Assembly (NCBI GenBank): GCA_016872355.1
Contig: VGZY01000005.1
Coordinates: 6,547-70,546 of the forward strand
Length of the DNA stretch: 64,000 nt
From: SAR202 cluster bacterium
GTDB lineage: Bacteria > Chloroflexota > Dehalococcoidia > Lucifugimonadales > VGZY01
Direction: 5' to 3'
Each line of letters begins with the position of its first letter. The stretch's first letter is position 1. Below are positions 11,770 to 53,416 of this stretch, piece by piece. The translations under genes were made by a program, and so were the position numbers. The notes below the pieces were generated by a model. That model was not told the DNA's origin. It searched no databases and was given only the letters and a program-made list of their open reading frames with translations.

Positions 11770-11799
11770 GCGTGTGCCTCCTTCGCGCCTGCAGGAAAG

Positions 11800-13299: not shown

Positions 13300-13353
13300 T
13301 GGTCGCTCCAGAGAGGGAGTGATGGGTGAACCGGATTAGATGCCAATCGCGCG

Positions 13354-14796: not shown

Positions 14797-14798
14797 TG

Positions 14799-39900: not shown

Positions 39901-40396
39901 CCATGTGCGCCGGGTCGATGCCGACGACGTTCATGCCCGGCTCGGTCTGGGAAGACCGCACCGCCAGCGCGGGGACGGACTCCGCAAGCTGCGGCATCAT
40001 CCCGTCGATGCGGCTATCCCCCGCGAACCGGTCGCGTACGTTCTCAAACTGCGTGTAGGGGATGTAGGTGCGGCCGAAGACCGCGCCGCCGCCGCCGGAG
40101 CGGGCGGGGAGAACGATCTCGTCGATATTTTGGAGGCCGGTGATCGCCTCCTTGCGGATGGAGTAGCTCAGGGTGTCGCCCGTCCCGAAGGCGGCGGACA
40201 TGATGACTGTGCTGAGCATCACGCCGATGATGATCAGCGCAGTCATGCCGGGCCGGCGGGGGATGTTACGCAGCGCCATCTTTACCATGACGGGGTTGCG
40301 GACCGCCAGGTACACGATGGCCAGCATCGCCGCGGCGAACAGCGCCAGCAGCACGGCCATGAGCGTATCCATGGGGATGAAGAAGAGCTTCTCCAA
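36932..40396 (-). CDS. ABC transporter permease with duplicated FtsX domains (1154 aa)
   Basis: Two FtsX-type TM bundles separated by large extracytoplasmic regions and additional TMs. Ends ...YPAEALRYE like MacB-type permeases. Confidence 0.85.
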   Translation of the reverse strand: MEKLFFIPMDTLMAVLLALFAAAMLAIVYLAVRNPVMVKMALRNIPRRPGMTALIIIGVMLSTVIMSAAFGTGDTLSYSIRKEAITGLQNIDEIVLPARSGGGGAVFGRTYIPYTQFENVRDRFAGDSRIDGMMPQLAESVPALAVRSSQTEPGMNVVGIDPAHMGGFGDLLSTAGGPADIGAVPEGQVFVNRPAAESLDIEKGDVIRLFLNDLQVNVTVRDIIERGGIAGREPTIVMPLEHMQRMFTKIGQINSLLVSNRGGVLEGAELGREVSRDLRLVFSNRDVAGEIKRGLNTPDTLRMLQEKATPLEGELRTDVDSLIAEIQKDGVSDELVSLLGDAPVVQFVLSSLFDSDMGSTGTAVAILMDRLSEMRVLNIKQNVLREADEAGSVVTTIFITFSLFSIMVGILLIFLIFVLLAAARKSEMGMARAVGAKRRHLVLMFIFEGAAYAVVSAAVGVALGLAVSAVGIRVINSLAEDIGENFSLTVHFEPRSIVVAYCLGMVITLATVAFSAYRVSRLNIVVAIRGLPEALAAPKEPRFRSRLFSFLRALVRPVYFLWKAVTALLRKRPGAALLNAARAVLWVVAFPLWIADIAIGLFKFVWTYLLRGWLTFLAGTAIAYMTVTTWKQVAWFGSGVSLMLIGMGLLLRVALKRTSMCPEARDRLAFTLTGLALLLYWVLPLGFFEPVTGKLEGNFNVMFVSGIAMVAAAVWTVMYNADILMKAFTSATRGVGRLRPVLTTAVAYPMSAKFRTGLTLAMFALVVFTLMVMSVLTETFSTQFSEPDVVTGGWDIGAEVNLNTPVTDIRAAIAAEPSLDPGDFEAIGGYTRAPVQARRAGAETQGWESEPVLLADQGFLRQSEYTFKLVAEGYGPAAIDVWQAIADNPGLAVVSGYMVESKAPAAGGKDDSLLNAYYNDSRMEAVELELREPNSGGTARVKVIAVIDRVHDVHGIITSKAALDAVLPAPVPITTHLFRLKDGVDRAATAKAIEAAFLEHGMDAVVLEEQLLQAAAAGKTFFRLFTGFMALGLFVGVAALGVISTRAVVERRQQIGVLRAIGYRRRMVQWSFLLESSFIAVLGTVIGGILGIVLSYNAVMDIRAQEGADNIRFTIPWLQIAMILGLTWVFSVIATYMPARQASKTYPAEALRYE

Positions 40397-40399
40397 TGC

Positions 40400-41164
40400 T
40401 TATGACCCCTGACGCCTGTTGCCGGCGCGCGCGCCGTCCTCGGAGACCCCGTTGGCCGGACCCGGCCCGGCGGCGCGGCCCTTCCCGTCGTCCACCACCA
40501 GGCCGTCGCGCATTCTAACGATGCGGTTGGCGGCCTCGCCCACCTCTCGGGCGTGGGTCACAATCACGAACGTCTCACCGTTGTCGCGGTTCAGGCCGAT
40601 CATAAGCGCCATGATCTCCTGCGCCGTCTCGCTGTCAAGGTCGCCGGTGGGCTCGTCCGCCCACACGATAGCGGGGTCGTTGACGAGCGCGCGGGCGATG
40701 GTGACTCGCTGGCGCTGGCCGCCTGAGAGCTCGCCCGGGTAGTGGCTGCCTCTGTCAGAGAGGCCCACGCGGTCCAGCATGTCCTTCGCCTTGCGGCGCG
40801 CCACCGACGGGCTTGTGCCTGAGAGCAGGAGCGGCATCTCTACGTTCTCAATCGCGGAGAGCACCGGAAACAGGTTGTAGAGCTGGAATACAAAGCCCAT
40901 GCGCCGGGCGCGGTAGTCGCTCCGCTCATCGTCGCCCATGCCGTGAAGGTTGACGCCTTCGATGAGCGCCAGGCCTGAGTCTATCTCGTCCAGCCCGGAC
41001 AGGCAGTTCAGCAGCGTCGTCTTCCCGCATCCGGACGGACCCATGATTGCCACCATTTCCCCGCGGTCGATCTTCAGATCGACGCCGCGAAGGGCGTGGA
41101 CCTTTACCTTGCCGGTGTCGTAGGTCTTCTTGATGTCTGTAGCGTCCACGATCAGCTCTGTCAT
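40400..41164 (-). CDS. ABC transporter ATP-binding protein (MacB/LolD type)
   Basis: [35 protein letters not shown]. The stop lies 3 nt before the permease start. Confidence 0.95.
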
Positions 41165-41191
41165 ATGCCCCTCTGTCGATGCCTGGTTGAA

Positions 41192-41221
41192 TTATGCGCA
41201 TATATATGCGTGTAAGTCAAC
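41192..41221 (-). promoter_or_regulatory. Putative sigma-70 promoter of the ABC operon with an embedded palindrome
   Basis: Minus strand TTGACT - 18 nt - CATAAT. The spacer contains the perfect palindrome CGCATATATATGCG (41198-41211). Confidence 0.4.
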
Positions 41222-41334
41222 CAGAGCGCTGCGGGCGAGTGCAGGTAGAGTCCTGTTTCCTATGTGGCCGCAGCGCCTCCGGTAATGATAGCAGAGGAGT
41301 GGTAAGTGATTTGAAAGATGTGAACAGAAGCGGT

Positions 41335-41363
41335 TTGACAATCAACTGCGATATGGGGATAAT
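41335..41363 (+). promoter_or_regulatory. Putative sigma-70 promoter
   Basis: TTGACA - 17 nt - GATAAT, followed by SD AAGGAGG and ATG 41397. Confidence 0.55.
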
Positions 41364-41396
41364 GCCGACGAAAAGCGTTCATAAGGAGGTTGTATC

Positions 41397-41735
41397 ATGG
41401 TAGTTCAGTCAACGGAAACGCCGTCTCAGCCAAGTGTGTCGTACCCGGTGCGACTTGAAGCGGAGTACCAGGAGACCTATTCGCGCGGCCTGGCATTGCT
41501 TGGCGCGCTGGTCTTTCTAAAGGCGCTGCTACTGATACCGCACCTGGTGATCCTGTACATTCTTGGCATTGCGTCGGCGGTGCTGGCGTGGGTTGGTTAC
41601 CTGGTCATCCTGTTCACCGGCAAGCAGCCGAGAGGCGTCTACCACTTCAACCTCGGCGTCCTGCGGTGGCAGACGCGCACGACGGCGTGGCTGCTGAGCA
41701 TCTCCGATAAATACCCGCCGTTCACGATGAAGTAG
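41397..41735 (+). CDS. DUF4389-like small membrane protein
   Basis: Two TM helices (LIPHLVILYILGIASAVLAWVGYLVILFTGK) and C-terminal SDKYPPF motif. Confidence 0.7.
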   Translation: MVVQSTETPSQPSVSYPVRLEAEYQETYSRGLALLGALVFLKALLLIPHLVILYILGIASAVLAWVGYLVILFTGKQPRGVYHFNLGVLRWQTRTTAWLLSISDKYPPFTMK

Positions 41736-41780
41736 GCGCGGTAGCCAACGGGCCACATAAGAGAGGGCTCTTGAGACGGG

Positions 41781-41812
41781 CGGCAGCGTAAAACGGGCAG
41801 TTTACGCTGCCG
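41781..41812 (+). terminator. Perfect 12-bp hairpin after the DUF4389 gene
   Basis: CGGCAGCGTAAA - ACGGGCAG - TTTACGCTGCCG. No downstream T-tract. Confidence 0.4.
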
Positions 41813-41830
41813 GACATGGTCGTGCCAGCT

Positions 41831-41859
41831 TTGACAATGGTGTTTGCTCAGAGTATCTT
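41831..41859 (+). promoter_or_regulatory. Putative sigma-70 promoter
   Basis: TTGACA - 17 nt - TATCTT, upstream of ATG 41918. Confidence 0.4.
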
Positions 41860-41917
41860 TCAGAAGTCTGTCGCAATACTTGTTAAGTTCGCACTCCCAG
41901 GAGCGCCTGATAATCTC

Positions 41918-43171
41918 ATGAGCAAGCTTTATTACACTGAGTCCGGCCGTTTCCTGCCGGCGCTTGGCGAAGAGCTGACAACGTTTCGCCGCGCCCGAAA
42001 AGTCCTGACCCTGCCGAAGACATCGAAGCCTGCCCGCCTCTTTTTTATCCCGCGACCATACGAAGACTCAAACGCGCCGCTGCGCCTTTCTGTGAACGGC
42101 AAAGAGCTCGCGCCCATCGTCAAGCAGCCGAGCAGGATCGTGTACCAGTGGCATGCCGTCACTCTTGAGCCGGGGCTCCTCAGGGCAGGGGAGAACGTTT
42201 TCGAGTTCTGGTGCGATGCGACCGCGATGAACGGCTGGGCGCTGGCGATGGAGGGGGGCTTTGCCAACCCCGCGAGCTTCACCACAGACGACGGCGGGGC
42301 AAACTGGCGCAACCACCACATGTCATACCTTAATGTGGACAGGGGCGAATACCTTGTCCGCGTGCGCCTTGAAGAGGGCGAAGACCCCGCGCCGCCGCCG
42401 ATGGTCTACGAGGACCCTGCCAATCCCAGGCTGGCCTCCTATCGCAAGCTGTTCCCGGCCGAGGCGCTGGAGCCCGGCCCGATACTGAAGCGCGTCCGCG
42501 CCCTGAGCACGTGGATTGCGAACAGCTGGGAGCACACGGCGGCAGGGCCCGGACTGGGCACGGTGCCGATGCCGTGGGACCCGGAGACGATACACGCCTG
42601 GGCGTCCATGGAAAAAGGCCACGCCGGTCAGAGGCCGATCGCGAATTGCATCTTCTACGGCGTGACGTTCGCCGCGGCATGCCAGGCCCTCGGTATCCCC
42701 GCCCGTTGCTCTATCTTTTCAGACAAGCCGGCCGGGGGTGGCGGGCACTTCACGGCAGAGTACTGGTCCAATGAGCATGAGAAATGGTGCATGGTGGACC
42801 CGAACTTCGACGCCATGTTCCTGCGCAACGGCGTCCCGCTCTCAGTGACCGAGCTACAGGACACCCGCAAGACCGTGAACGACGTTACTGAGTACGGCCC
42901 GGGCGCTGAGCGCCACAGGCAGAACCCCAGGACCATGTACTGGTTCGACGACGGCAGCCGCCGGGCGCGGTCTATCAACCACCGGTCCGTCTGGTACCGC
43001 TCGGACATCCTCTCCCACCCTGAGTTCAACCCGGCCGCCCACGGCGCGGGTGTGATGTACTCAGAAACGGGAATCGTCTGGGAGCAGCGCGACATGGAGA
43101 CTTGGCCGATGTTCCCATACTTCGGGGACCGCGATTACTTCGACGCGCCTCCGAGGGGTTTCGGCAAGTAG
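41918..43171 (+). CDS. Transglutaminase-like (papain-fold Cys-His-Asp) domain protein
   Basis: Trimmed to ATG 41918. Core NCIFYGVTFAAACQALGIPAR...GHFTAEYW...WCMVDPNFD matches the transglutaminase-like Cys/His/Asp arrangement. No signal peptide. Confidence 0.7.
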   Translation: MSKLYYTESGRFLPALGEELTTFRRARKVLTLPKTSKPARLFFIPRPYEDSNAPLRLSVNGKELAPIVKQPSRIVYQWHAVTLEPGLLRAGENVFEFWCDATAMNGWALAMEGGFANPASFTTDDGGANWRNHHMSYLNVDRGEYLVRVRLEEGEDPAPPPMVYEDPANPRLASYRKLFPAEALEPGPILKRVRALSTWIANSWEHTAAGPGLGTVPMPWDPETIHAWASMEKGHAGQRPIANCIFYGVTFAAACQALGIPARCSIFSDKPAGGGGHFTAEYWSNEHEKWCMVDPNFDAMFLRNGVPLSVTELQDTRKTVNDVTEYGPGAERHRQNPRTMYWFDDGSRRARSINHRSVWYRSDILSHPEFNPAAHGAGVMYSETGIVWEQRDMETWPMFPYFGDRDYFDAPPRGFGK

Positions 43172-43280
43172 GCGCTATGCCATTAGTCCTAAGAGCCGGT
43201 ATGGCGTTCGTACATAGCTGGTATCATCAGTGAATGGCGCACTTGCCTGTAACCTATCCAACGGACGGCTTTGAAACGCG

Positions 43281-43943
43281 ATGAGCGACCTTTTTCACGA
43301 GCTTTCAGACTGGCTTGCCGGTGTCGCGGACAGCGACTGGGCTATTGCGGTGCTTGGGTTGGCCTCGTTCATAGAGGCGATATTCTTCCCAATCCCGCCG
43401 GACCCCCTGATGCTCGGGATCGCGGTGCTGCGCCCCGGCATCAGCATCTGGCTTGGCGTGTGGGTTACGGCAACGTCCGTACTCGGCGCGCTCGTGGGCT
43501 ACTGGGTGGGCAAGAAGCTCGGCAGGCCCGTGCTCTTGAAGTTCTTCTCCGAGAGCAAGATCAGCAAGGTAGAGGCGCTGTACCAGAAGTACGGCATGTG
43601 GGCGACGCTCATCGCCGCCTTCACGCCCATACCTTACAAGGTCTTCGCCATTACGGCGGGCGTGTTGCGGCTTGACCGCCGCACTTTCGTAATTGCCTCA
43701 ATTATCGGTCGCGGCGCGCGGTTTATCACACTTGGCGTGCTTATCTACTTCTTCGGCGAGTCGATCGAGAAGTTCGTGATAGATAACTTTGAAATACTGA
43801 CCGTCGCCGTGACAGTGCTAGTGCTGGCGCTTGCTGCGGCATATGTGCTGTTCAGCCGCCGCGGCAAGGCGAATAAGCGCAAGGCAGAGGAAGCCGCCGC
43901 GCATGGCGCGCCGGCCTCCGGCCAGACCACCGAGCCAGGGTGA
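43281..43943 (+). CDS. DedA/YqaA (VTT-domain) family membrane protein
   Basis: SFIEAIFFPIPPDPLML, AAFTPIPYKVFAITAG motifs. Confidence 0.8.
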   Translation: MSDLFHELSDWLAGVADSDWAIAVLGLASFIEAIFFPIPPDPLMLGIAVLRPGISIWLGVWVTATSVLGALVGYWVGKKLGRPVLLKFFSESKISKVEALYQKYGMWATLIAAFTPIPYKVFAITAGVLRLDRRTFVIASIIGRGARFITLGVLIYFFGESIEKFVIDNFEILTVAVTVLVLALAAAYVLFSRRGKANKRKAEEAAAHGAPASGQTTEPG

Positions 43944-43950
43944 CTTCGCT

Positions 43951-44508
43951 CTAAAGGTTCTCCACGCCGGTGAGCGTCTGCCGGGCCGGTTTTGCCCCGG
44001 ATGGGGCCACCCTGCGCCGGGTGCTTGTGCCGGTGTCTGCCGCTATGGACGGCTCCCCCGCTGCAGCGCCGGCCTGCCGGGCGAGCGCAAGCTGGTCGGT
44101 GAGGCCCCAGTGCTCGATGATCTTCCCGTGGGAAAAGCGGACGATATCGATGCCTGGAATCGAGGTCCTGTTTCCGCTGGCACTGAGCCCCAGGAAATCC
44201 CCACTGTGCGTTCCTCGGAACGTCACTCTCGCCACAACCTTGTCCCTGTCGGCGATCATGTCCTCCACGGTGACGTACAGGTCCGGGAAGGCAGCATGCA
44301 TCGCCCGCACCAGCGATTTGAAGCCTTCCCTGCCGGGGTCGAAGCCCGGGAACACTTCGTGCTCGTACATGTCGGCGTGGACGTACTCATCAGCGGCGTC
44401 AATGTTCCGGCCGTTGAATACCTCCTGGTACAGGCCGTGAAGCCTTGAAATGTTGTTATCCCTCGAAACGACCCGCTTTCTTTGCTGCGCTCCCCACACG
44501 ATAGCCAT
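43951..44508 (-). CDS. SnoaL-like ester cyclase family protein
   Basis: FPDLYVTVEDMIADRDKVVARVTFRGTHSGDFLG..SGN...PGIDIVRFSHGKIIEHW. Confidence 0.8.
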   Translation of the reverse strand: MAIVWGAQQRKRVVSRDNNISRLHGLYQEVFNGRNIDAADEYVHADMYEHEVFPGFDPGREGFKSLVRAMHAAFPDLYVTVEDMIADRDKVVARVTFRGTHSGDFLGLSASGNRTSIPGIDIVRFSHGKIIEHWGLTDQLALARQAGAAAGEPSIAADTGTSTRRRVAPSGAKPARQTLTGVENL

Positions 44509-44625
44509 GCCGCCCTCCTCAGCGTCGGATTGTGGCGCGGCGCCCGCAAAATGCCCAAAGCGCCGCAGTTTCTGAGGAAAGAATAGGTGGTGCTCGTTGC
44601 GGCAGAATCCCCCTTTCGGGTGATT

Positions 44626-45918
44626 CTAGGCGGCGCGGGCCGAGTCCGGCTTCTTTACCGTGACCTTCTCGATCCTGGGCCCGCGGGTCTGTGAGACCAC
44701 GAACGTCAGGGCGCCGTAGCTCAGGCGGTCGCCTTTGGATGGGATACTGCCAAGCTCACTCATCACAAAGCCGGCTACCGTCTCGTACTCCCCGTCCGGA
44801 ATTTCGAGATTCAGCATCTCATTCAGCTCGTCGATGCGCATCGATCCGTCGATCTGGAACTCCGTATCGCTGACAGGGCGCACAGTCTCTTCCGCCCCTT
44901 CCTGTCGTGACTGTCCGACGATCTCGCCCACGAGCTGCTTGTACGTAACCATCCCGGCGATGCCGCCGAACTCATCGACGACGACCCCGGTGCTCATGCC
45001 GTTCTGGCGCATCTCGTGGAGAAGCTCCAGTACCTCCTTGGTCTCAGGGACAAAATAGGCCGGGTGAGCGTACCTTTCGATAGGGCCGGCAGGGTCAATT
45101 GCGCCCTGGCCGCTTGCTTTGACGAACTCCTTGACGGACAACATCCCGACCATGTTGTCCACGCTCCCGTCGCAGACGGGGAAGTGGCTGAAGTACTGGT
45201 GGGAGTTGAACATAAGGAATTCGGCTACCGTCATTCTGCGGTCTATCCACACAATCTTTGAGCGGCGAGTCATGATATCCCCCACATGGCGGCCGCCGGC
45301 CCGGAAGACCCTCAGGAGCATATATGCCTCGGTGTCCTGTACCGCGCCGGTGCGGCGGCCGTGGGAGATGAGCGACTTGATCTCCTCCTCGGTAATGCCC
45401 GGCTCAGGGTTTTGCTTTATCCCCAGAATGCGCAGCGCCAGGTGAGTGGTAACGCTGAGCACGGCGGCGACCGGGGCGAACAGCTTTGCGACGAGCATCA
45501 TGGGGCGTGAGAGCGCGGATGCGATGGTCTCCGGGTGGCTTAGCGCGAGCTGCTTGGGCACGAGCTCTCCGATAATTAGAGAGGCGAAGACGATCACCGC
45601 GACAACAACGGCGAAGGCGATCTCTTCGTTGTAGGCGCCAACGTACGGCAGGCCTGCGAGCGCGGGGCTAATGTCTTCTGCGATTCGCGCTCCGCCGAAG
45701 GCGCCTGAGAGGATGCCGATTAGAGTAATACCAATCTGTACAGTGGAGAGGAAGCGTGTGGGGGACTGGCCAAGTATCAGGGCAGCCAGCGCACCTTGAT
45801 CGCCCTGGTCGGCGCGGTGCTGTAGCTTCGTCCTGCGGGCGGACACTACCGCGAACTCCGCCATGGAGAATACGCCATTGGCGAGGATCAGTACAGCGAT
45901 GATACCGACTTCAAACAT
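44626..45918 (-). CDS. Hemolysin/CNNM family protein (DUF21-CBS pair-CorC_HlyC)
   Basis: Trimmed to ATG 45918 (AGGAG upstream). LANGVFSMAEFAVVSARR DUF21 motif, CBS pair, C-terminal transporter-associated domain. Confidence 0.9.
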   Translation of the reverse strand: MFEVGIIAVLILANGVFSMAEFAVVSARRTKLQHRADQGDQGALAALILGQSPTRFLSTVQIGITLIGILSGAFGGARIAEDISPALAGLPYVGAYNEEIAFAVVVAVIVFASLIIGELVPKQLALSHPETIASALSRPMMLVAKLFAPVAAVLSVTTHLALRILGIKQNPEPGITEEEIKSLISHGRRTGAVQDTEAYMLLRVFRAGGRHVGDIMTRRSKIVWIDRRMTVAEFLMFNSHQYFSHFPVCDGSVDNMVGMLSVKEFVKASGQGAIDPAGPIERYAHPAYFVPETKEVLELLHEMRQNGMSTGVVVDEFGGIAGMVTYKQLVGEIVGQSRQEGAEETVRPVSDTEFQIDGSMRIDELNEMLNLEIPDGEYETVAGFVMSELGSIPSKGDRLSYGALTFVVSQTRGPRIEKVTVKKPDSARAA

Positions 45919-46102
45919 GCGAGGAGGCTCCTGGGTGCTCTCCCCGAGACAGGCAGAGCGCCCAGGCCATTCTAGCACCTGAGGGCATTTGGCCGTACGG
46001 CTTCCAGGAGCCTATTCCAGGAAAAACCCACGCGAGCCACCCAGAATGAACTCTGGAAGGATGCATTGCCGCTGCGATCGTCGCCGTCCGTGGAGTGAGT
46101 TG

Positions 46103-46111
46103 TGGTAGAAT
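46103..46111 (+). promoter_or_regulatory. Extended -10 promoter element
   Basis: TGgTAGAAT. No good -35 element. Confidence 0.4.
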
Positions 46112-46120
46112 GGCGCTGAT

Positions 46121-46210
46121 ATGAAAGCTTGCCTTGCGATCGGTGTCTCCAGGGTAGCTATGATCGCCACGGTAGTAGTACGTGGCCGGTTACCTGTGGG
46201 GAGGAATTAG
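46121..46210 (+). CDS. Candidate leader peptide (29 aa) rich in Val/Ile/Leu
   Basis: MKACLAIGVSRVAMIATVVVRGRLPVGRN. Three consecutive GTA codons at 46172-46180. Its end overlaps the antiterminator arm. Confidence 0.45.
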   Translation: MKACLAIGVSRVAMIATVVVRGRLPVGRN

Positions 46211-46242
46211 GCTCGTCCGGTCGCACCGGACACCATCTCTGG

Positions 46243-46267
46243 ACCTCCCTGAACGGGAGGTTTTTTT
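46243..46267 (+). terminator. Intrinsic terminator directly upstream of ilvE (attenuator)
   Basis: aCCTCCC - TGAAC - GGGAGGt followed by T7. Lies 28 nt before the ilvE ATG, with SD AAGGAG in between. Confidence 0.6.
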
Positions 46268-46295
46268 GTGGAACGGACATACCAAGGAGTAGACG

Positions 46296-47387
46296 ATGTC
46301 ACGAGCAACGGAGCTTAACGACGGCAGGTCCACAGAAGGCCAAAAGAGCGCCGCTCCGCAGGCGAAGAAGGCCAACCTGGGCTTTGGCCGGACATTCACA
46401 TCACACATGTTCGTCATGGAGTGGACCAAGGACCGGGGATGGCACAGCCAGCGGATAGAGCCGTATGGCTCGCTTACCCTGGACCCGGCGGCGGCGGTGC
46501 TGCACTACGGGCAGGCGCTGTTCGAGGGGCTGAAGGCGTTCAAGACACGAGACGGGCGCATCGTGATGTTCAGGCCGGACCGCCACTTCAAGCGCATGAA
46601 GGAGGGGGCAGCACGGCTTGTGATGCCCGAGATCGACTCCGACACGGTGATGAAGTGGCTCGTGGAGCTCGTTACGAAGGATAGGAACTGGGTCCCGTCC
46701 GAACCGAGTACGGCGCTTTACATTCGCCCCACGCTGGTGGCGACGGAGCCGTTCCTTGGGGTGAGGCCATCAGAGAGTTATCTGTTCTTGATCATTATGT
46801 CGCCAGTGGAGCCCCTATACGGTCTAACGCCCAGGCCGCTGAAGCTGTGGGCGGAGACGAAATACGTGAGGGCGGCCCCCGGCGGCCTGGGCGCATCGAA
46901 GACAGCCGCCAACTACGTCGCCAGCCTGGCAGGCTCGGTGGCCGCGAAGTCGAAAGGGTTCGACCAGGTGATCTGGCTGGACGCAATCGAGCGAAAGTAC
47001 GTGGAAGAGGTCGGCACGATGAACCTCTTCGCCGTAATCGACGGCGAGCTGGTCACGCCGCCGCTCGGGGACACAATCCTGCCTGGGGTCACCAGAGACT
47101 CCATCCTCACCCTCGCGAAGGAGTGGGGCCTGAGGGCAAGTCAGCGCAGGATTTCGCTGGAGGAGATCGTTGCTGCCGACCGGTCCGCCAAGCTGCAGGA
47201 GATATTCGGCTGCGGCACGGCGGCTGTGTTGTCCAGGGTAGGGCAGCTCGCGGGAGATGGGTTCGATATCGCCCTGCCGATGCGCGACGGGTCATACGCC
47301 CAGCGCTTCTACGACGCCATCACTAACGTCCAATACGGCCTCGCGCCTGACACCCACGGGTGGCTGAAAGAGGTGCGCCAGGGGTGA
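46296..47387 (+). CDS. ilvE: Branched-chain-amino-acid aminotransferase
   Basis: FGRTFTSHMF, YGQALFEGLKAF, 363 aa, long-form class IV aminotransferase. SD AAGGAG 6 nt upstream. Confidence 0.92.
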   Translation: MSRATELNDGRSTEGQKSAAPQAKKANLGFGRTFTSHMFVMEWTKDRGWHSQRIEPYGSLTLDPAAAVLHYGQALFEGLKAFKTRDGRIVMFRPDRHFKRMKEGAARLVMPEIDSDTVMKWLVELVTKDRNWVPSEPSTALYIRPTLVATEPFLGVRPSESYLFLIIMSPVEPLYGLTPRPLKLWAETKYVRAAPGGLGASKTAANYVASLAGSVAAKSKGFDQVIWLDAIERKYVEEVGTMNLFAVIDGELVTPPLGDTILPGVTRDSILTLAKEWGLRASQRRISLEEIVAADRSAKLQEIFGCGTAAVLSRVGQLAGDGFDIALPMRDGSYAQRFYDAITNVQYGLAPDTHGWLKEVRQG

Positions 47388-47415
47388 GGCCCATCTCGTC
47401 GCCGGGGGTGATTCA

Positions 47416-48942
47416 GTGCCTCAGCAATCGAGTCGGGCCAGACCCGTAAGGCGCGCGGCCAAGCCCAAGGTCCTCTTTGCAGCCCCGCCCAGCGATGTTG
47501 CCACCGCCTGCATCGCCCGGTACGCCCGCTCCAGGGCCCCGGAAACGCGCGTACTCTTCTCAGACATCGCCCGTTATCCTGGCCTGATAGCGGAGATGGG
47601 GCCGGAAGCAGAAGGCATCGAGGGGACGGTTAACAGTTATGATCCTGAAACGGGCTTCGAGGCCGCTTTCACCGCCAGATTCAACCGGCCCCTGCCCAGC
47701 TACGCCGCAGCCACCCACGACGCCGTCCTTCTCCTTGCCTACGGGCTAGAGCGCTCAGGAGGCGTGGGCGGCGAGTCCCTGGCCAGGGCTATGGGCGAGG
47801 TGGTCGACGGGACCGGGCACACCACCGGATGGGACCCAGCGGGCGTCAAGGACGCCCTTGGCGCAAACCGGAGCGGCAACCTCCCCAACGTCTCAGGCGG
47901 AACCGGCGGTCTGGCCTACAGCCCGGACCTGCGCACGGAGCTAAGCTCTTCAACTTACGGCCACTGGAAGGTCTCAGGCGGGAAGTTCGTCTTCCAGGAA
48001 TTCATCTCGACCTCGCCGGATGCCCATGAAGGCTCCCTCTCGGCCGAGTCGCTTTTCCGCACGCTGGCCTCGGAGAGCAAACGCGATAACGGGACGGCCA
48101 CGGGAGCATCCGCGGCCTATGACCCTGGGCCGCGTGCGGGTCTGTGGGCGCTCATCGTCGCTGGCTTGGCCGGTTGGGAGAACTACCGTCACCAGGCCGA
48201 CGCGCTGGCCTTCTACCAGCTACTGCGATCACGCGGCGTGGCTGATGACCGCATTGTGCTCGCCATGGCGGACGACATCGCCGGCAGCCCGCGCAACCCG
48301 GAGCCGGGCATAGTAAGGAACTACCCCGGCGGCCCCAACCTGCACGAAGGCGCGAATATCGATTACCGCACCTCCAGCCTCTCGGAAAGCGACCTCAGCG
48401 CCATTCTGAACGGAGAGAGCACCACCTCCTTGCCGCACGTGATATCTGCCGGGCGACAGGACAACGTGCTGCTATTTATGGTGGGCCACGGCGGTCGGGC
48501 AGGTTTCTATATGGGCGTTCATAGCGCCGGAGACAGCGTTCAGGAAGGCGAGGCCACAGTACTTGACTCTGCCGAGCTTGCCGGGATGCTGGGATCCCTG
48601 TCGGCTTCCGGCAGGTTCCGGCGGCTCCTCATCGTCGTGGAGGCATGCCACGCAGGTGCTCTGGGAGCGGAGATCAAAACGCCCGGAGTCCTGCTTATCA
48701 CGGGCGCCAATGCGACCGAGAACTCGCAGGCGTCAAACTACGATGTCAAACTGAACCAGTTCCTCGCGGACGACTTTGCCTGGGAGCTCTTCAGGCTTGG
48801 TTCCGACTCGCCTTCACTCTCACTCGACGAGGCGCACCGCATTGCATACGTCCGTGTGAAGGCATCCCATGTCTCCGCCTACAACGAGGACCGTTTCGGG
48901 GACATGGCCACGGTTACGCTGGCCGAATTTATATCCCCGTAG
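47416..48942 (+). CDS. Fusion protein: partial type-1 periplasmic-binding-protein-like region + legumain-like peptidase C13 domain
   Basis: aa 243-508 align by eye to legumain: WALIVAGLAGWENYRHQAD, MADDIAGSPRNPEPGIV, catalytic His in FMVGHGG (His358), catalytic Cys in VVEACHAGA (Cys411). aa 60-200 resemble the C-terminal lobe of Leu/Ile/Val-type binding proteins (SYAAATHDAVLLLAYGLE). No signal peptide. GTG start 28 nt after the ilvE stop. Confidence 0.8.
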   Translation: MPQQSSRARPVRRAAKPKVLFAAPPSDVATACIARYARSRAPETRVLFSDIARYPGLIAEMGPEAEGIEGTVNSYDPETGFEAAFTARFNRPLPSYAAATHDAVLLLAYGLERSGGVGGESLARAMGEVVDGTGHTTGWDPAGVKDALGANRSGNLPNVSGGTGGLAYSPDLRTELSSSTYGHWKVSGGKFVFQEFISTSPDAHEGSLSAESLFRTLASESKRDNGTATGASAAYDPGPRAGLWALIVAGLAGWENYRHQADALAFYQLLRSRGVADDRIVLAMADDIAGSPRNPEPGIVRNYPGGPNLHEGANIDYRTSSLSESDLSAILNGESTTSLPHVISAGRQDNVLLFMVGHGGRAGFYMGVHSAGDSVQEGEATVLDSAELAGMLGSLSASGRFRRLLIVVEACHAGALGAEIKTPGVLLITGANATENSQASNYDVKLNQFLADDFAWELFRLGSDSPSLSLDEAHRIAYVRVKASHVSAYNEDRFGDMATVTLAEFISP

Positions 48943-48980
48943 CAGCACGCCCCCCGCGGCGCCTCTTTACTTTGAGATAT

Positions 48981-49002
48981 ATTCGCGTCAATTGACGCGA
49001 AT
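48981..49002. promoter_or_regulatory. 22-nt perfect palindrome (candidate operator or RNA hairpin)
   Basis: ATTCGCGTCAATTGACGCGAAT. Ends 8 nt before ATG 49011. Confidence 0.4.
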
Positions 49003-49010
49003 AGTTCGCC

Positions 49011-50567
49011 ATGCTAGATTCACCCTCGAACCACAGCACGGAGGCGACCGCTTTGCTCACGCCCATCCAGTACGAGCCCAAGCCGTACCTGCTACGCTCC
49101 AACTCCATCTTCTTTCACGACTGGAGGTATGTCTTCGAGGGCAACTTCAACTGGAAGACGACCGCGGAGAAAGAGGAGGGACGCTACTTCAAGGACCTCA
49201 AGGAGCCGGCGAAGTGGACCGCAATCGATATGCCGTACGGCATTCGCCTCCGCACCGTCCAGTCGCAAAACACCGAGCCGTTCCTGGACGTGGGCAAGCC
49301 CTGGGAAGAGCACCTCAGGCACCCCAGCGTTGTACTGGATAGTGGGATCTATCGCCTCTGGTACGGCACGCGCAAGAACATGTGCTACGCGGAATCGGAC
49401 GATGCCTTCACGTGGCGCAAGCCCAGGCTCGGCATCCAGGAGATCGAAGGGAGCAAGCACAACAACGTTGTAATCGGCATGAAGATGCCGCCGCAGCCGG
49501 ACTACTTCAACCTGGGCAACGTCTTCGTAGACCCGTCTGCGCCAGCCACCGAGCGCTACAAGGCGCTGTATATGCGCCGCATCGCGCCGGACGTGATGAA
49601 GGCATTCACTGCCAAGTATCCCGGCGAGCTCAGCCCGCACTACCAGGATGGAGCGGATGAGGACATCGAAAAGGAGGTCCTCGCCGTTGGCGGCGCGGTC
49701 TCGGCGGACGGCCTACGGTGGAAGCCGACGAAGCTTCCACTGACGGTCCACAGGGCCGATACACAGAACATGATGTACTTCGACGAGGTCCGCAACACAT
49801 ACGTCGGCTACTTCCGCACCCACGTCTTCCGCCGCCGCTCCATCGGCCGCGCGGAGTCGAAGGACTTCAGGCACTTCCCCTTGCTTGACACGATCATCTG
49901 GCCGGACGCGAGCGTTGGCCCGTCGGACGTGTGGTACTCCATCGGCCGCGTCTCGTATCCCGGCGCGCCGGACTACCACCTGATGTTCGCGGGGGCATGG
50001 CACGTCACTGAAGACAACTGGTACCACCGGCCGGCGACCAGCCCGGACGGCGTCATGTGGGGCTGGGTGCCCGGCGAGCGCCCTATCACCCTGGGTGACG
50101 GGCGCGCGTGGGACGCCGGCTGCATCTCCATGGGCGCGGGCATGGTGGCGCTACCCGGCGACCGCGTCGGCATCCCCTATACCGGATACCACATCCCGCA
50201 CAAGTACCCCCGCTCGCCGGGGCTCGGCAAGTTCGCGTGGGCTACGTGGCAGAAGGGCCGCGTCGTCGCGCTTGAGGCGGAAGAGCGCGGCGAGTTCATC
50301 ACCAAGCGCGTCCGCTTTGAGGGGAACACCCTGCGCGTAAACGTGAACACGAAGCACGTGGGGAGCCTTGCCGTGGAGGTGGTAGGGGAGGGCGGCAAGC
50401 CCATCGAAGGGCGGTCCTTCGCCGACTGCGATGTCATCAGCGGTGACCACCTGGACAAGGTGGTCACCTAGTGCGGAAACTCGGACCTTGGCCGCAAGCC
50501 CGGAGAGCCCCTTATGTTCCGCGTGCGGCTGAACGCCGGCAAGCTCTACAGCATGAAATTCCAGTAG
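49011..50567 (+). pseudogene. Beta-propeller glycoside-hydrolase-like protein with C-terminal beta-sandwich, interrupted by an in-frame TAG (50469-50471)
   Basis: ORF track gives 49011..50471 (486 aa). The same frame continues for 31 more codons (CGNSDLGRKPGEPLMFRVRLNAGKLYSMKFQ) to a double stop TAGTAG. Repeated DG..W blade motifs (AESDDAFTWRKP, VSADGLRWKP, TSPDGVMWGW). Confidence 0.6.
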
Positions 50568-50591
50568 TAGATCGCACACGGGGGACAGCCC

Positions 50592-51188
50592 ATGCCATCC
50601 AAACCAAAGATAGCCATCATCGGTGACGGCAAAGTGGGCTCGGCACTGAAGCGCGGGTTGACCCGCGGCGGCTACGATGTGCGGGCGGTGGGACGCGAGC
50701 CGAAGCAGGTCGCGGAAGTCGCTAAATGGGGCGACGCCGTCATACTGGCGATGCCTTACGCCGTGCGTGAGGCCGTCATCGCTGGCGTAAGGGATGCCGT
50801 GAAGGGCAAGACGGTGGTGGACGCCACCAACGGCCTGGACAAGGGCCTCACGATCCTGACAGACCCGCGACGCGAGAGCGGGGCGGAGCAGGTTCAGCAG
50901 TGGGTGCCGGAGGCGAAGGTCGTCAAAGCGTTCAATAACGTCTTTGCCGAGACGATGGACTCCGGCAAGGTGAACGGGGAGGCCATCGCGACCTTCGTCG
51001 CCGGCAACGATGATGCCGCGCGCAAGCAGGTGGTGGCTATGGCGATGGCGATCGGCTTCGACGCGGTGGAAGCCGGCAGCCTCGAGAACGCCCGGTTGAT
51101 TGAGATGATGGGCAACCTCACGATCACGCTCGCACACCGAGTCGGCATGGGCCGCAACTTCGGCTTCAAGATCGTCCGAGGCGGCTGA
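50592..51188 (+). CDS. NADP-dependent oxidoreductase (F420-dependent NADP reductase / P5C-reductase-like N-domain family)
   Basis: KIAIIGDGKVGSALKRGL Rossmann motif. 198 aa. Confidence 0.7.
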   Translation: MPSKPKIAIIGDGKVGSALKRGLTRGGYDVRAVGREPKQVAEVAKWGDAVILAMPYAVREAVIAGVRDAVKGKTVVDATNGLDKGLTILTDPRRESGAEQVQQWVPEAKVVKAFNNVFAETMDSGKVNGEAIATFVAGNDDAARKQVVAMAMAIGFDAVEAGSLENARLIEMMGNLTITLAHRVGMGRNFGFKIVRGG

Positions 51189-51261
51189 CGTCCCACACGG
51201 GACGGCGCGGATGTAGTAGACTCCCTTCCGTGAACGCAAACGAGAGGACCCTTCACTTCAC

Positions 51262-52242
51262 ATGCCCGACACAAGACCGGTAATCCTAACCGGCGCTCCA
51301 AAAGAAAAGCCCGTCTACGCGGAGGCCAACGGCCTCAAGTGGTACCACGTCAAGGCCGTCACCGTAGAAGAGCTGGACTTCGTTGGCAAGCTCTGCCAGG
51401 TCAACCCGTTCGACCTCGCGGACTGCATCTCGCAAAAGCAGCTCCCCACGGTCGTCGTTAGGGGCGACTACCTCTTCGCCATCATCCACTTCCCCCGGTT
51501 CGTCCCTGAGAAGCAGACGGTCGTACCCCAACAGGTCGGAGTCATAATCGGCACAACGTTCATGGTCACCGTCTCCCAGGCTGAGGTGAAGCCGGTCGAC
51601 CGGCTCTTCCAGCGTTGCTTGACAGAGTCTCTTGTTCGCCGGCAGGTCATGGACGGCGGCACCGGGGAGGTGCTTTACCGCGTCCTGGACAAGATGGTGG
51701 ACTACCTCTTTCCCATGTTGGACAAGGTGCTCGAGGCGATGGAGTCCATCGAGGACGACGTCTTCGACGAGCGAGTCTCGGTGGCGCGAAGCGTCAGCAT
51801 CCTGCGGCGGGACATCACGGACCTGCGGCGGATACTGTTTCCCATGCAGCGCCTGGTCACAGACCTCCGCGCAAAGACGAAGAAGTACTGCAGGGTGGAT
51901 ATGGACCTGCACTACGAGGACCTTTACGACCGCGTCGCCACCGTCTGGACGACGCTGGAGAGCGCCAAGGAACGCGTCGACATCTACAAGGACACGGACT
52001 ACGTGATCAGCACGGAGAAGACGAACAAGATCCTCTCAATGCTGACGATAATCTTCACGCTGTCCATCCCCGTGACCGTTGTGGGCGCGCTCATGGGCAT
52101 GAACGTCCTCGTGCCAGGTGGGGTAGAGACCGGGCCCTGGATGTTCCTTGGCGATTACACCACGTTCGTCCTAATGATCCTCATCTCCCTCATCCCCGCC
52201 GGGCTTATGCTCCTCCTGTTCAAATGGTGGCGCTGGATATAG
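51262..52242 (+). CDS. corA: Magnesium/cobalt transporter CorA
   Basis: GMN motif (ALMGMNVLVPG) between two C-terminal TM helices. 326 aa. Confidence 0.9.
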   Translation: MPDTRPVILTGAPKEKPVYAEANGLKWYHVKAVTVEELDFVGKLCQVNPFDLADCISQKQLPTVVVRGDYLFAIIHFPRFVPEKQTVVPQQVGVIIGTTFMVTVSQAEVKPVDRLFQRCLTESLVRRQVMDGGTGEVLYRVLDKMVDYLFPMLDKVLEAMESIEDDVFDERVSVARSVSILRRDITDLRRILFPMQRLVTDLRAKTKKYCRVDMDLHYEDLYDRVATVWTTLESAKERVDIYKDTDYVISTEKTNKILSMLTIIFTLSIPVTVVGALMGMNVLVPGGVETGPWMFLGDYTTFVLMILISLIPAGLMLLLFKWWRWI

Positions 52243-52481
52243 GTCCTAAGAATCTCAGACCATGTTCGATTGCAGGGCTCTGCCAACGCATCGTCCGAGC
52301 CGGTTTCTGAGGATTCCCAGTTGGCGATGCAGCCACGCTGATCTCACAGCTCCCCGAAGAGCGCACGCAGTGCGCCACTACGGGGAGAGGGGCCACAGGC
52401 CGTCTGGCATTGGCCTGCTCAGGCTGGTTCTGACAAGTCCAACTCTTCTAAAATGTCTGACTTGATTCCAGATAGTTGCAC

Positions 52482-52510
52482 TTGCAATGATTGTACAGTG
52501 CTCGTATAAT
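52482..52510 (+). promoter_or_regulatory. Putative sigma-70 promoter
   Basis: TTGCAA - 17 nt - TATAAT. Confidence 0.5.
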
Positions 52511-52594
52511 GCTTCTGAGGGCCAACGCCCAGCGCGCACCGCGAGGTATGCCATGACTAACAACACCACTCTCGCAACTAAGGAGCATCCGGAG

Positions 52595-53416
52595 ATGGCC
52601 GGCCCCATGCCGGCCCTGTTCGTCGCTCACGGCGCGCCGTTCGTGACTCGGGACGGTGCGCCTGTTTCCCTGCAGGCCAGAGGCGGCCCCAACTGGATCG
52701 CCGGGCTCTTCAAGGACCTGAACGAGCTCGCGCTGTCCATTCCCAAGCCGCGAGCGGTGCTGATTCTCTCCGCGCACTGGGAGGAACGCCCGGTGACCAT
52801 CGGCGCGACAACGACGGTGCCGCTGACGTACGACTTCTACGGCTTCCCGGAGCAGTTCTACCACTTCGAGTACCCGGCACCCGGCGCGCCGGAGCTGGCG
52901 GAGCGCGTCCGCGAGCTGCTTGGACCCACGCAACAGGTTGCGGAAAACCCGGAGCGCGGCCTTGACCACGGCGCGTACGCTCCGCTGGCGGCGATGTACC
53001 CGGACGCGGACGTGCCGGTCCTCCAGGTCTCGCTGCCCACAATGGACCCTGAGACGCTCTTCAAGCTGGGGCAAACGCTCGCGCCGCTCCGCAACGAGGG
53101 TGTGCTGATCGTCGGCAGCGGCTTCATCACGCACAACCTGCGCACGGTAGACCTGCGCGCGGACGCGCCGGTGCCGTCCTGGGCCGCGGATTTCGACTCG
53201 TGGAGCGCCGAGGTGATGGCCGCGCATGACATCGACCGGCTCGTTACCTACAAGGAGATAGCGCCGGGGGTGCGCTTCGCGCTGCCGACGCATGAGCACT
53301 TCGTGCCGTCTATCGTCGCCGCTGGCGCCGGCACAGAGGGGCCGAGCGACGTCAAATTCCCGCTGACGGGCTTTATCATGGGCTCCTTCACCCGCCGGTC
53401 CGTGAGGTACGGGTAA
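52595..53416 (+). CDS. Class III extradiol ring-cleavage dioxygenase (LigB/YgiD, 4,5-DOPA dioxygenase-like)
   Basis: Start chosen at ATG 52595 (AAGGAG 9 nt upstream; alternative ATG 52553). MPALFVAHGAP, ILSAHWE, GSGFITHNL. Confidence 0.85.
   Translation: MAGPMPALFVAHGAPFVTRDGAPVSLQARGGPNWIAGLFKDLNELALSIPKPRAVLILSAHWEERPVTIGATTTVPLTYDFYGFPEQFYHFEYPAPGAPELAERVRELLGPTQQVAENPERGLDHGAYAPLAAMYPDADVPVLQVSLPTMDPETLFKLGQTLAPLRNEGVLIVGSGFITHNLRTVDLRADAPVPSWAADFDSWSAEVMAAHDIDRLVTYKEIAPGVRFALPTHEHFVPSIVAAGAGTEGPSDVKFPLTGFIMGSFTRRSVRYG

What the first reader, a model, noticed from the sequence alone, without database searches (positions are those of the whole stretch)
47416..48942. Cytoplasmic legumain (C13, clan CD) protease fused to a partial amino-acid-binding-protein-like region, co-transcribed with ilvE
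The C-terminal 265 aa align by eye along their whole length with eukaryotic legumain. This includes the catalytic His (VGHGG, His358) and Cys (EACHAG, Cys411) contexts and the WxxYRHQAD motif. The N-terminal 200 aa resemble only the C-terminal lobe of type-1 periplasmic binding proteins of the Leu/Ile/Val-binding kind (…PSYAAATHDAVLLLAYGLERSG…). There is no signal peptide, and the gene starts 28 nt after ilvE, so it sits behind the putative branched-chain amino-acid attenuator. A caspase-fold protease carrying a ligand-binding-like module in an amino-acid-regulated operon suggests a ligand-gated or amino-acid-supply-linked protease. I do not know of a described bacterial system of this kind.
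Basis: partly seen in the sequence, partly recalled or inferred. Interest (0 to 1): 0.7.

Follow-up and report, generated by a model that had tools for sequence, protein, structure and literature searches.

The report
Truncated bacterial legumain gene beside ilvE
This is a real gene for a legumain-type protease, but it is a copy that has lost its front third. The intact family is a widespread, uncharacterised group of exported "binding-protein plus legumain" lipoproteins, and this copy's position next to the amino-acid gene ilvE is seen in no other genome.

Summary
The ORF (47416-48942, +, 508 aa) exists as described. It has a complete legumain-like C13 domain: Pfam 9.9e-46, His358/Cys411 and the Asn-pocket residues intact, predicted fold TM 0.89 to human legumain. 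In front of it lies only the last ~40% of a Leu/Ile/Val-type binding-protein (PBP) domain.

The partial PBP is a truncation, not a new module. About 120 homologous protein clusters and at least 592 genomic loci encode ~700-aa proteins with a signal peptide or lipobox, a complete PBP and then C13. They occur in Myxococcota, Actinomycetota, Chloroflexota, Bacteroidota and methanogens. Homology to them starts at residue 14 of the window protein, which matches their residue ~215. The missing ~210 residues are encoded nowhere in the window.

No other complete locus shows this truncation. ilvE is absent from all 80 family loci examined, and C13 is absent from 43 ilvE loci. The recurrent neighbour is a Bmp/PnrA-like lipoprotein gene (22 of 80 loci).

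The junction is reproduced in a second assembly, so it is not a chimera. The organism is a SAR202 (Chloroflexota) MAG with no close relative sampled.

Most likely this is a non-exported remnant, possibly still translated by read-through from ilvE. A new cytoplasmic function is not excluded but has no support. Interest is low to moderate. The intact family deserves study more than this copy does.

The parts
46296..47387 (+). ilvE (branched-chain amino-acid aminotransferase, type II). It is the upstream neighbour and is not part of the family's conserved context.
   Evidence: NCBIfam PRK13357 1.4e-129 and TIGR01123 5.5e-104. Identical to an NCBI SAR202 cluster bacterium protein.
47388..47415 (+). 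28-nt spacer between ilvE and the ORF. It contains a Shine-Dalgarno-like GGGGGTGAT (47404-47412) and no terminator-like hairpin.
   Evidence: Sequence. The terminator scan finds nothing between the genes.
47416..48942 (+). The whole ORF, 508 aa from GTG. NCBI holds this form (MBM3933126.1). JGI and Logan aa from ATG 47596.
47416..47454 (+). Residues 1-13 (MPQQSSRARPVRR). Basic, no family homology, low model confidence. Possibly the n-region of a former signal peptide.
   Evidence: tblastn homology starts at 47455-47464. pLDDT is below 50 for residues 1-14.
47455..48015 (+). PBP remnant, residues 14-200. It corresponds to residues ~215-410 of full-length homologues, i.e. Peripla_BP_6 profile position 187 onward.
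   Evidence: It keeps 17 of 18 family-conserved positions.
48016..48132 (+). Linker, residues 201-239, containing the family-conserved F-R-T-L-A-S-E motif. Mostly low-confidence and flexible.
   Evidence: Alignment A1. pLDDT is below 50 at residues 204-212 and 224-229.
48133..48939 (+). Legumain-like C13 catalytic domain, residues 240-508. Key codons: Asn256 (48181-48183), Arg258/His259 (48187-48192), His358 (48487-48489), Glu409 (48640-48642), Cys411 (48646-48648), Asp452 (48769-48771). There is no C-terminal LSAM prodomain.
   Evidence: Pfam 9.9e-46. PDB legumain 7.7e-31. Foldseek TM 0.89, rmsd 2.1-2.4 Å to active human legumain. Codons checked.
46160..46273 (+). Context: candidate ilvE leader. 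A small ORF MIATVVVRGRLPVGRN* (46160-46210) is followed by a terminator-like hairpin (46241-46263) and a U-run.
   Evidence: No Rfam family matches.

Best explanation
The ORF is a 5'-truncated or internally deleted copy of a gene from a widespread prokaryotic family. Intact members are ~700-aa exported proteins, mostly lipoproteins. They consist of a signal peptide with a lipobox Cys, a complete LIVBP/HAAT-type periplasmic binding domain, a flexible linker and a legumain-like C13 peptidase. In this SAR202 (Chloroflexota) genome the first ~210 codons are gone, and the remainder begins 28 nt after ilvE.

Shown: the truncation, its uniqueness, the intact C13 catalytic machinery, the absence of an export signal, and the absence of any conserved ilvE linkage.

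Inferred: (1) Because no terminator separates the genes and a good Shine-Dalgarno precedes GTG 47416, the remnant is probably still transcribed by read-through from ilvE and may be translated. (2) The product would stay in the cytoplasm, the wrong compartment for this family. (3) What is left of the PBP contains only part of each lobe and none of the N-terminal two-thirds that forms most of the ligand cleft in LIVBP-type proteins, so it cannot act as a ligand sensor and probably folds poorly. (4) The gene is therefore most likely a recent, not yet decayed relic, and its place behind the ilvE leader is a by-product of the deletion or rearrangement rather than a regulatory design.

A sub-hypothesis is an in-frame internal deletion. 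It would have removed the signal-peptide h-region through residue ~215 of a full-length gene already located after ilvE. This would explain why a good ribosome-binding site, a start codon and a basic n-region-like N-terminus sit exactly at the junction.
For: All but five of the 119 non-self homologues listed are 587-756 aa and nearly all carry PF13458/PF01094 plus PF01650. tblastn of five full-length homologues places the start of homology at window 47455-47464, matching their residues 209-229, with no hit to their N-terminal parts anywhere in the 64 kb. In alignment A1 the window sequence is empty over columns 1-283. Pfam maps Peripla_BP_6 profile 1-310 onto residues 27-328 of P0005, but only profile 187-310 onto the window protein. 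Of 80 genomic loci, every one not cut by a contig end encodes a 647-1015-aa ORF with an N-terminal signal, except L051 (N-masked) and L053 (possible frameshift). The only short database member starting at a similar position (P0055) is a contig-edge fragment. Of 112 full-length homologues, 96 have a hydrophobic N-terminal segment and 79 a lipobox-like motif; the window protein has neither. ilvE and the downstream 486-aa gene are absent from all 80 family loci (1.23 Mb), and C13 is absent from 43 ilvE loci. The recurrent neighbour is Bmp/PnrA (22 of 80 loci) and is absent from the window. The junction is reproduced in Logan assembly L001 at 99.993% identity. The window copy has lost 3 of 26 C13 positions that are >=95% conserved (S251L, W449F, G483A), and only 5 of 112 homologues lose as many. 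Its GC3 of 0.75 is at the low end of its neighbours, 0.77-0.87. Several MAGs carry two or three paralogues (CAITRH01, MGSU01, DAORCZ01, JBGAOI01), so loss of one copy is plausible.
Against: The 508-codon frame is fully open. All catalytic and S1 residues are intact. Relative-rate tests show no acceleration, with window-unique to sister-unique changes at ~1.07 in both domains. The PBP remnant keeps 17 of 18 conserved positions. A strong SD-like GGGGGTGAT lies at proper spacing before the GTG. NCBI's pipeline annotated it as a protein, not a pseudogene. All of this fits equally well a remnant that is maintained by selection. No close relative exists (the nearest family member is 49% identical and the nearest ilvE 58-60%), so neither the ancestral state nor dN/dS could be obtained.
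Confidence: 0.6

Rival explanations
1. Neofunctionalised cytoplasmic legumain. After losing its export signal and most of the PBP, the protein is kept as a cytoplasmic Asn/Asp-specific protease. It is co-expressed with ilvE under the branched-chain amino-acid leader, perhaps to supply amino acids by proteolysis during starvation.
For: Open frame, intact catalytic and S1 residues, good SD and start codon, no terminator after ilvE, no rate acceleration, PBP remnant well conserved, annotated as a protein by PGAP. A candidate Val/Ile-rich leader peptide plus terminator precedes ilvE.
Against: It is a single occurrence. No other genome has a short form or an ilvE linkage. Neither PBP lobe is complete, so ligand gating by the remnant is structurally implausible (and the known LIVBP topology). 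There is an excess of substitutions at near-invariant C13 positions. Every feature cited in support is also expected of a recently truncated gene.
Confidence: 0.15
2. The gene is effectively intact but split or mis-assembled. The 5' part would lie elsewhere in the genome, or the ilvE/ORF junction would be an assembly chimera joining two loci.
For: A contig from another sample (L128) ends at window 47480, 25-90 nt from the junction. That could mark a strain-variable or graph-branch point.
Against: Two assemblies span the junction identically: the 83.9-kb NCBI/JGI contig and the Logan contig L001. No N-terminal family sequence occurs anywhere in the 64-kb window in any frame. A PBP N-half encoded separately would still leave this ORF without an export signal.
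Confidence: 0.05
3. The true product is the 448-aa form starting at ATG 47596 (the JGI/Logan call). On this reading the PBP-derived sequence upstream of it is untranslated relic DNA.
For: Two gene callers chose this start. ATG is a commoner start codon than GTG.
Against: The ATG has only GCGGAG immediately abutting it, with no spacer. The GTG has GGGGGTGAT with the GGGGG core 7 nt upstream. Family homology at normal identity continues through the 47 codons upstream of the ATG, in frame and without stops.
Confidence: 0.15

Closest known systems
Prokaryotic PBP-C13 fusion proteins, e.g. 'Legumain' of Plesiocystis pacifica SIR-1 (P0078, 728 aa), 'C13 family peptidase' of Deltaproteobacteria/Nannocystaceae MAGs (P0048, P0070), and 'ABC transporter substrate-binding protein' of Bacteroides sp. 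(P0098)
   Same: Collinear homology at 30-49% identity from window residue 14 to the C-terminus. Same linker motif, same C13 domain with the same catalytic and S1 residues, and the same absence of a C-terminal prodomain.
   Different: The window copy lacks the signal peptide/lipobox and the first ~60% of the PBP. It also lacks the Bmp neighbour found in 22 of 80 loci, and it sits after ilvE. I found no experimental study of the family.
Eukaryotic legumain / asparaginyl endopeptidase (MEROPS C13, clan CD; human LGMN, PDB 4aw9, 4n6o)
   Same: Catalytic domain is 28% identical over its whole length, predicted TM 0.89. The Asn42-His148-Cys189 triad and the S1 residues Arg44, His45, Glu187 and Asp231 are all conserved.
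   Different: There is no C-terminal LSAM prodomain, which keeps prolegumain latent until acid activation. An N-terminal PBP-derived region is present instead. It is prokaryotic and, in this copy, not exported.
LIVBP/HAAT-type periplasmic binding proteins (LivJ/LivK; PDB 4mlc, 3td9)
   Same: The PBP domain of intact family members matches these proteins at 7e-22 to 1e-7, and the window remnant aligns with their C-terminal third.
   Different: The window retains only profile positions 187-310, scores below the Pfam cut-off, has no signal peptide and has no adjacent LivHMGF-type transporter genes.

Membership tests
Peptidase family C13 (legumain), clan CD | Significant match to the family profile (Pfam PF01650) above the curated cut-off | tested here: met
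   156.8 bits against a cut-off of 22.8, E 9.9e-46, residues 244-496 matching profile 2-249 of 258.
Peptidase family C13 (legumain), clan CD | Catalytic His-Cys dyad with the supporting Asn (human N42/H148/C189) | tested here: met
   N256, H358 and C411 align to these residues. N256 and H358 are invariant and C411 is present in >=90% of the 33 sequences.
Peptidase family C13 (legumain), clan CD | S1 pocket residues for Asn/Asp specificity (human R44, H45, E187, D231) | tested here: met
   R258, H259, E409 and D452 align to them. The roles of these residues are taken from published legumain structures (own knowledge).
Peptidase family C13 (legumain), clan CD | Caspase-like alpha/beta fold of the catalytic domain | tested here: met
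   AF2 model with pLDDT above 90 over most of the domain. Foldseek TM 0.89, rmsd 2.1-2.4 Å to active human legumain. This is a prediction only.
Peptidase family C13 (legumain), clan CD | Asn-specific endopeptidase (or ligase) activity | not testable with these tools
   Requires enzyme assays.
Eukaryote-type prolegumain | C-terminal LSAM prodomain that confers latency | tested here: not met
   The protein ends 12 residues after the Pfam C13 match. Matches to prolegumain chains cover only their catalytic part.
Prokaryotic exported PBP-C13 family (intact form) | N-terminal signal peptide, lipobox or membrane anchor | tested here: not met
   Maximum KD 11-mer is 1.17, against a family median of 2.59. 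96 of 112 homologues have a hydrophobic segment and 79 of 112 a lipobox-like motif.
Prokaryotic exported PBP-C13 family (intact form) | Complete type-I PBP domain preceding the C13 domain | tested here: not met
   Only profile positions 187-310 of 343 are present. Alignment columns 1-283 are empty, and the missing part is not elsewhere in the window.
Prokaryotic exported PBP-C13 family (intact form) | Collinear homology through the PBP C-terminal part, the linker and C13 | tested here: met
   44-49% identity over residues 14-508 to the nearest members. It is therefore a derivative of this family rather than an intact member.
LIVBP/HAAT periplasmic binding proteins | Two complete lobes forming a ligand cleft, with a profile score above the cut-off | tested here: not met
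   25 bits against a cut-off of 31.7, covering only the C-terminal ~40% of the profile.
ilv operon member / attenuator-controlled gene | Conserved synteny with ilvE or other ilv genes in related genomes | tested here: not met
   0 of 80 family loci contain ilvE and 0 of 43 ilvE loci contain C13.
ilv operon member / attenuator-controlled gene | Co-transcription with ilvE | tested here: inconclusive
   The 28-nt gap has no terminator-like site, so read-through is plausible. No expression data are available.
Caspase-like anti-phage defence proteins (PADLOC) | Significant match to a defence-system model | tested here: not met
   Only a weak generic 'caspase' hit (18.7 bits, E 2e-4). The intact homologue P0005 has none.

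The most novel reading that the evidence does not exclude
The remnant is not a relic. On this reading it is a functional cytoplasmic Asn-specific protease, derived from a secreted PBP-legumain and captured behind ilvE and its Val/Ile leader, so that intracellular proteolysis is switched on together with branched-chain amino-acid biosynthesis. That would be the first cytoplasmic bacterial legumain.
Probability: 0.12. Interest if true: 0.6.

Novelty: new member of a known kind. Interest (0 to 1): 0.3.

Why it matters
For this locus, the value is mainly corrective. An apparently exotic "half-PBP plus cytoplasmic legumain in an ilv operon" turns out to be a truncated copy of an exported family, and the ilvE link is unique to one population.

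The by-product is of more interest. Legumain-type C13 peptidases fused to a complete Leu/Ile/Val-type binding domain form a large family of lipoproteins. They are found in at least 592 GTDB species loci across bacterial phyla, methanogens and Bacteroidales (one Bacteroidales cluster was seen on 241 contigs). They are often paired with a Bmp/PnrA-like lipoprotein. I found no published characterisation and no solved structure. They lack the prodomain that regulates eukaryotic legumain, so how the PBP domain controls or targets the protease is an open and testable question.

Tried and rejected
- **Missing 5' part elsewhere in the window.** tblastn with five full-length homologues found nothing.
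- **Assembly chimera.** Rejected, because the Logan contig L001 spans the junction at 99.993% identity.
- **Other short family members as independent truncations.** P0055 is a contig-edge fragment. L005, L017, L059 and L064 are cut by contig ends, L051 is N-masked and L053 is probably frameshifted.
- **Ancestral state from relatives.**
  - The metagenome scan with ilvE gave at most 56% identity.
  - The protein search with ilvE gave at most 60% apart from the self hit.
  - The identical ilvE occurs only on the same two contigs.
- **dN/dS using L128.** Impossible, since it has 1 mismatch in 5.5 kb and is the same population.
- **NCBI flagged the ORF as a pseudogene.** Refuted. MBM3933126.1 is the 508-aa protein.
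- **Genome-wide gene decay suggested by a short AcrB-like ORF.** Rejected, because its N-terminus is normal.
- **Rfam match for an ilv leader or any RNA.** None in the window.
- **Defence-system membership.** Only a weak generic caspase hit.
- **Literature on bacterial, prokaryotic or archaeal legumain or Peptidase_C13.** Nothing relevant in three searches.
- **Limit of the AF2 model.** The model is confident (pLDDT 85), but I do not take it as evidence that the remnant folds. The alignment came from intact homologues, and the tool returns no coordinates for interface analysis.

Full report
**1. Observation**

The window contains an ORF at 47416..48942 (+) of 508 codons starting with GTG. It lies 28 nt downstream of a type-II branched-chain aminotransferase gene, ilvE (46296..47387; NCBIfam PRK13357 1.4e-129).

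Residues 244-496 match Pfam Peptidase_C13 at 9.9e-46 (156.8 bits against a cut-off of 22.8). They also match the catalytic domain of human legumain at 7.7e-31 over its whole length. In that alignment:
- VGH358GG aligns with legumain His148.
- EAC411HAG aligns with Cys189.
- N256-Y-R258-H259-QAD aligns with Asn42/Arg44/His45.
- E409 and D452 align with the S1-pocket residues Glu187 and Asp231 (codons verified).

An AlphaFold2 model (mean pLDDT 85.4) superposes on active human legumain at TM 0.89 and rmsd 2.1-2.4 Å. The protein ends right after the catalytic domain, so it has no LSAM-type prodomain.

The N-terminal region hits Peripla_BP_6 only weakly: 25 bits, below the 31.7 cut-off, residues 13-128 on profile positions 187-310 of 343. 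There is no hydrophobic N-terminal segment.

**2. What the partial PBP is**

A search of 5.8 billion proteins returned 125 clusters. Apart from the self hit, nearly all are 587-756 aa and carry a complete PBP domain (PF13458, PF01094) followed by PF01650. Their source names include "Legumain [Plesiocystis pacifica SIR-1]", "C13 family peptidase" and "ABC transporter substrate-binding protein".

Their N-termini are signal peptides, most ending in a lipobox Cys. Of 112 full-length homologues, 96 have a hydrophobic segment and 79 a lipobox-like motif.

tblastn of five full-length members against the window puts the start of homology at 47455-47464 (ORF residue 14-17). This matches their residues 209-229. 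Nothing in the 64 kb matches their first ~210 residues in any frame. In a 33-sequence alignment the window protein is empty over columns 1-283.

Pfam maps profile positions 1-310 onto residues 27-328 of homologue P0005, but only positions 187-310 onto the window protein.

In that fold each lobe is built from both N- and C-terminal segments (established LIVBP topology, own knowledge). The remnant is therefore not "the C-terminal lobe". It is an incomplete piece of both lobes.

**3. Is the truncation or the ilvE link seen elsewhere?**

They occur in Myxococcota, Actinomycetota, Chloroflexota, Bacteroidota, Thermodesulfobacteriota, Patescibacteria and archaea (Methanoregula, Methanospirillum, ANME-1, Thermoplasmata). 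The best match is only 49% identical.

- **Truncation.** Of the 80 loci retrieved, all those not cut by a contig end encode 647-1015-aa ORFs with N-terminal signals. The exceptions are L051 (N-masked) and L053 (probably frameshifted). The one short database member starting near the same point (P0055) is open to its contig edge.
- **ilvE link.** ilvE and the downstream 486-aa gene are absent from all 80 loci (1.23 Mb). None of 43 metagenomic ilvE loci carries a C13 gene.
- **Actual conserved neighbour.** A Bmp/PnrA-like substrate-binding lipoprotein gene (PF02608, 4.8e-46) lies directly adjacent on the same strand in 22 of 80 loci, across phyla and in methanogens. The window has none.

**4. Is the junction real?**

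Yes. A Logan assembly of SRR7990526 (L001, 14.3 kb) is collinear with window 38120-52381 at 99.993% identity and carries the same ilvE-to-ORF arrangement. The 83.9-kb contig is in NCBI as a SAR202 cluster bacterium MAG. NCBI annotates the 508-aa form as hypothetical protein MBM3933126.1, while JGI and Logan aa from ATG 47596.

A contig from another sample (L128) is 99.98% identical but begins at window 47480, just inside the ORF. It does not span the junction. That break so near the junction may or may not reflect strain variation.

**5. Relic or functional?**

The evidence does not settle this.

For maintenance:
- The frame is open and the catalytic and S1 residues are intact.
- The PBP remnant keeps 17 of 18 family-conserved positions.
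- Tajima relative-rate tests show no acceleration, with a ratio of ~1.07.
- A good SD-like GGGGGTGAT precedes the GTG at proper spacing, and no terminator follows ilvE.

For decay:
- The copy is unique and lacks the export signal of an extracytoplasmic family.
- It retains an incomplete PBP.
- It has lost 3 of 26 C13 positions that are at least 95% conserved (S251L, W449F, G483A; also Y474H). Only 5 of 112 homologues lose as many.
- Its GC3 (0.75) is at the low end of its neighbours.
- Paralogues are common in this family, with two or three loci in several MAGs, so one copy is expendable.

No relative is close enough for dN/dS. A recent truncation explains all the "maintenance" features without invoking selection, so I favour a recent relic (about 0.6) over a neofunctionalised cytoplasmic protease (about 0.15).

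The basic N-terminus MPQQSSRARPVRRAAK, joined directly to mid-PBP sequence and preceded by a good ribosome-binding site, suggests an in-frame internal deletion. It would have occurred in a full-length gene that already followed ilvE and would have retained the original start. This is inference only.

**6. Comparison with known systems**

The protein passes every sequence and fold test for the C13 legumain family. It fails the tests for:
- a eukaryote-type prolegumain (no LSAM domain);
- an intact PBP-C13 lipoprotein (no signal, incomplete PBP);
- a LIVBP-type binding protein;
- an ilv-operon member by synteny;
- a known defence caspase (PADLOC 18.7 bits only).

No solved structure of any prokaryotic C13 protein appeared in the sequence or fold searches of the PDB. 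Three full-text searches found no paper on bacterial, prokaryotic or archaeal legumains or on this fusion.

**7. Verdict**

- The locus itself is of low interest, as a truncated member of a database-annotated family.
- The intact PBP-legumain lipoprotein family and its Bmp partner are uncharacterised and widespread, and they are the better target for follow-up.

Noticed in passing
window 46160-46273: Candidate ilvE leader/attenuator. A 16-codon ORF, MIATVVVRGRLPVGRN*, has three consecutive Val codons plus Ile and Thr. It is followed by a 9-bp GC-rich hairpin and a U-run just before the ilvE ribosome-binding site. GGGGAGG near the end of the leader ORF could pair with the CCTCCC arm of the terminator as an anti-terminator. 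No Rfam family matches, and the fold z-score is only -1.67.
   Followed up: partly
window 48982-49001: A perfect 20-bp palindrome, TTCGCGTCAATTGACGCGAA, overlaps the only promoter-like site in the region (TTGACG...TAGATT). It lies 10 nt upstream of the 486-aa gene and is likely an operator for a dimeric regulator, which suggests that gene has its own regulated promoter.
   Followed up: no
window 49011-50471: A 486-aa protein with no Pfam or NCBIfam match (NCBI MBM3933127.1, 'hypothetical protein'). It is absent from all 80 family loci.
   Followed up: partly
L002 6985-8004; L081 11422-12429; 20 further loci listed: Intact PBP-C13 genes are directly flanked, on the same strand, by a Bmp/PnrA-like substrate-binding lipoprotein gene in 22 of 80 loci. 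This holds across Myxococcota, Bacteroidota, Thermodesulfobacteriota and Methanoregula and looks like a conserved two-gene module of unknown function.
   Followed up: partly
protein P0116 (alignment A1, columns ~755-762): One full-length family member has Asp in place of the catalytic Cys (…FMDTDYSG… against …VVEACHAG…). It is a probable pseudo-protease within the family.
   Followed up: no
L128 (= window 47480-53021): A contig of the same population from another sample (JGI 3300020193) ends 25-90 nt from the truncation junction. This may mark a strain-variable point or may be coincidence.
   Followed up: partly
L008, L009, L054 (one MAG, CAITRH01); L016/L017; L051/L062; L063/L065: Several single MAGs carry two or three paralogous PBP-C13 loci, so the family is often multi-copy.
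   Followed up: no
window 9670-15147 (-) and 20580-24376 (-): Three consecutive sulfatase genes (699, 499 and 597 aa; PF00884 plus SGSH_C) and a hydantoinase/oxoprolinase A/B pair.
   Followed up: no
window 47416 vs 47596: Gene callers disagree on the start. NCBI uses GTG 47416 (508 aa) and JGI/Logan use ATG 47596 (448 aa). Family homology and the better Shine-Dalgarno motif favour the GTG.
   Followed up: yes
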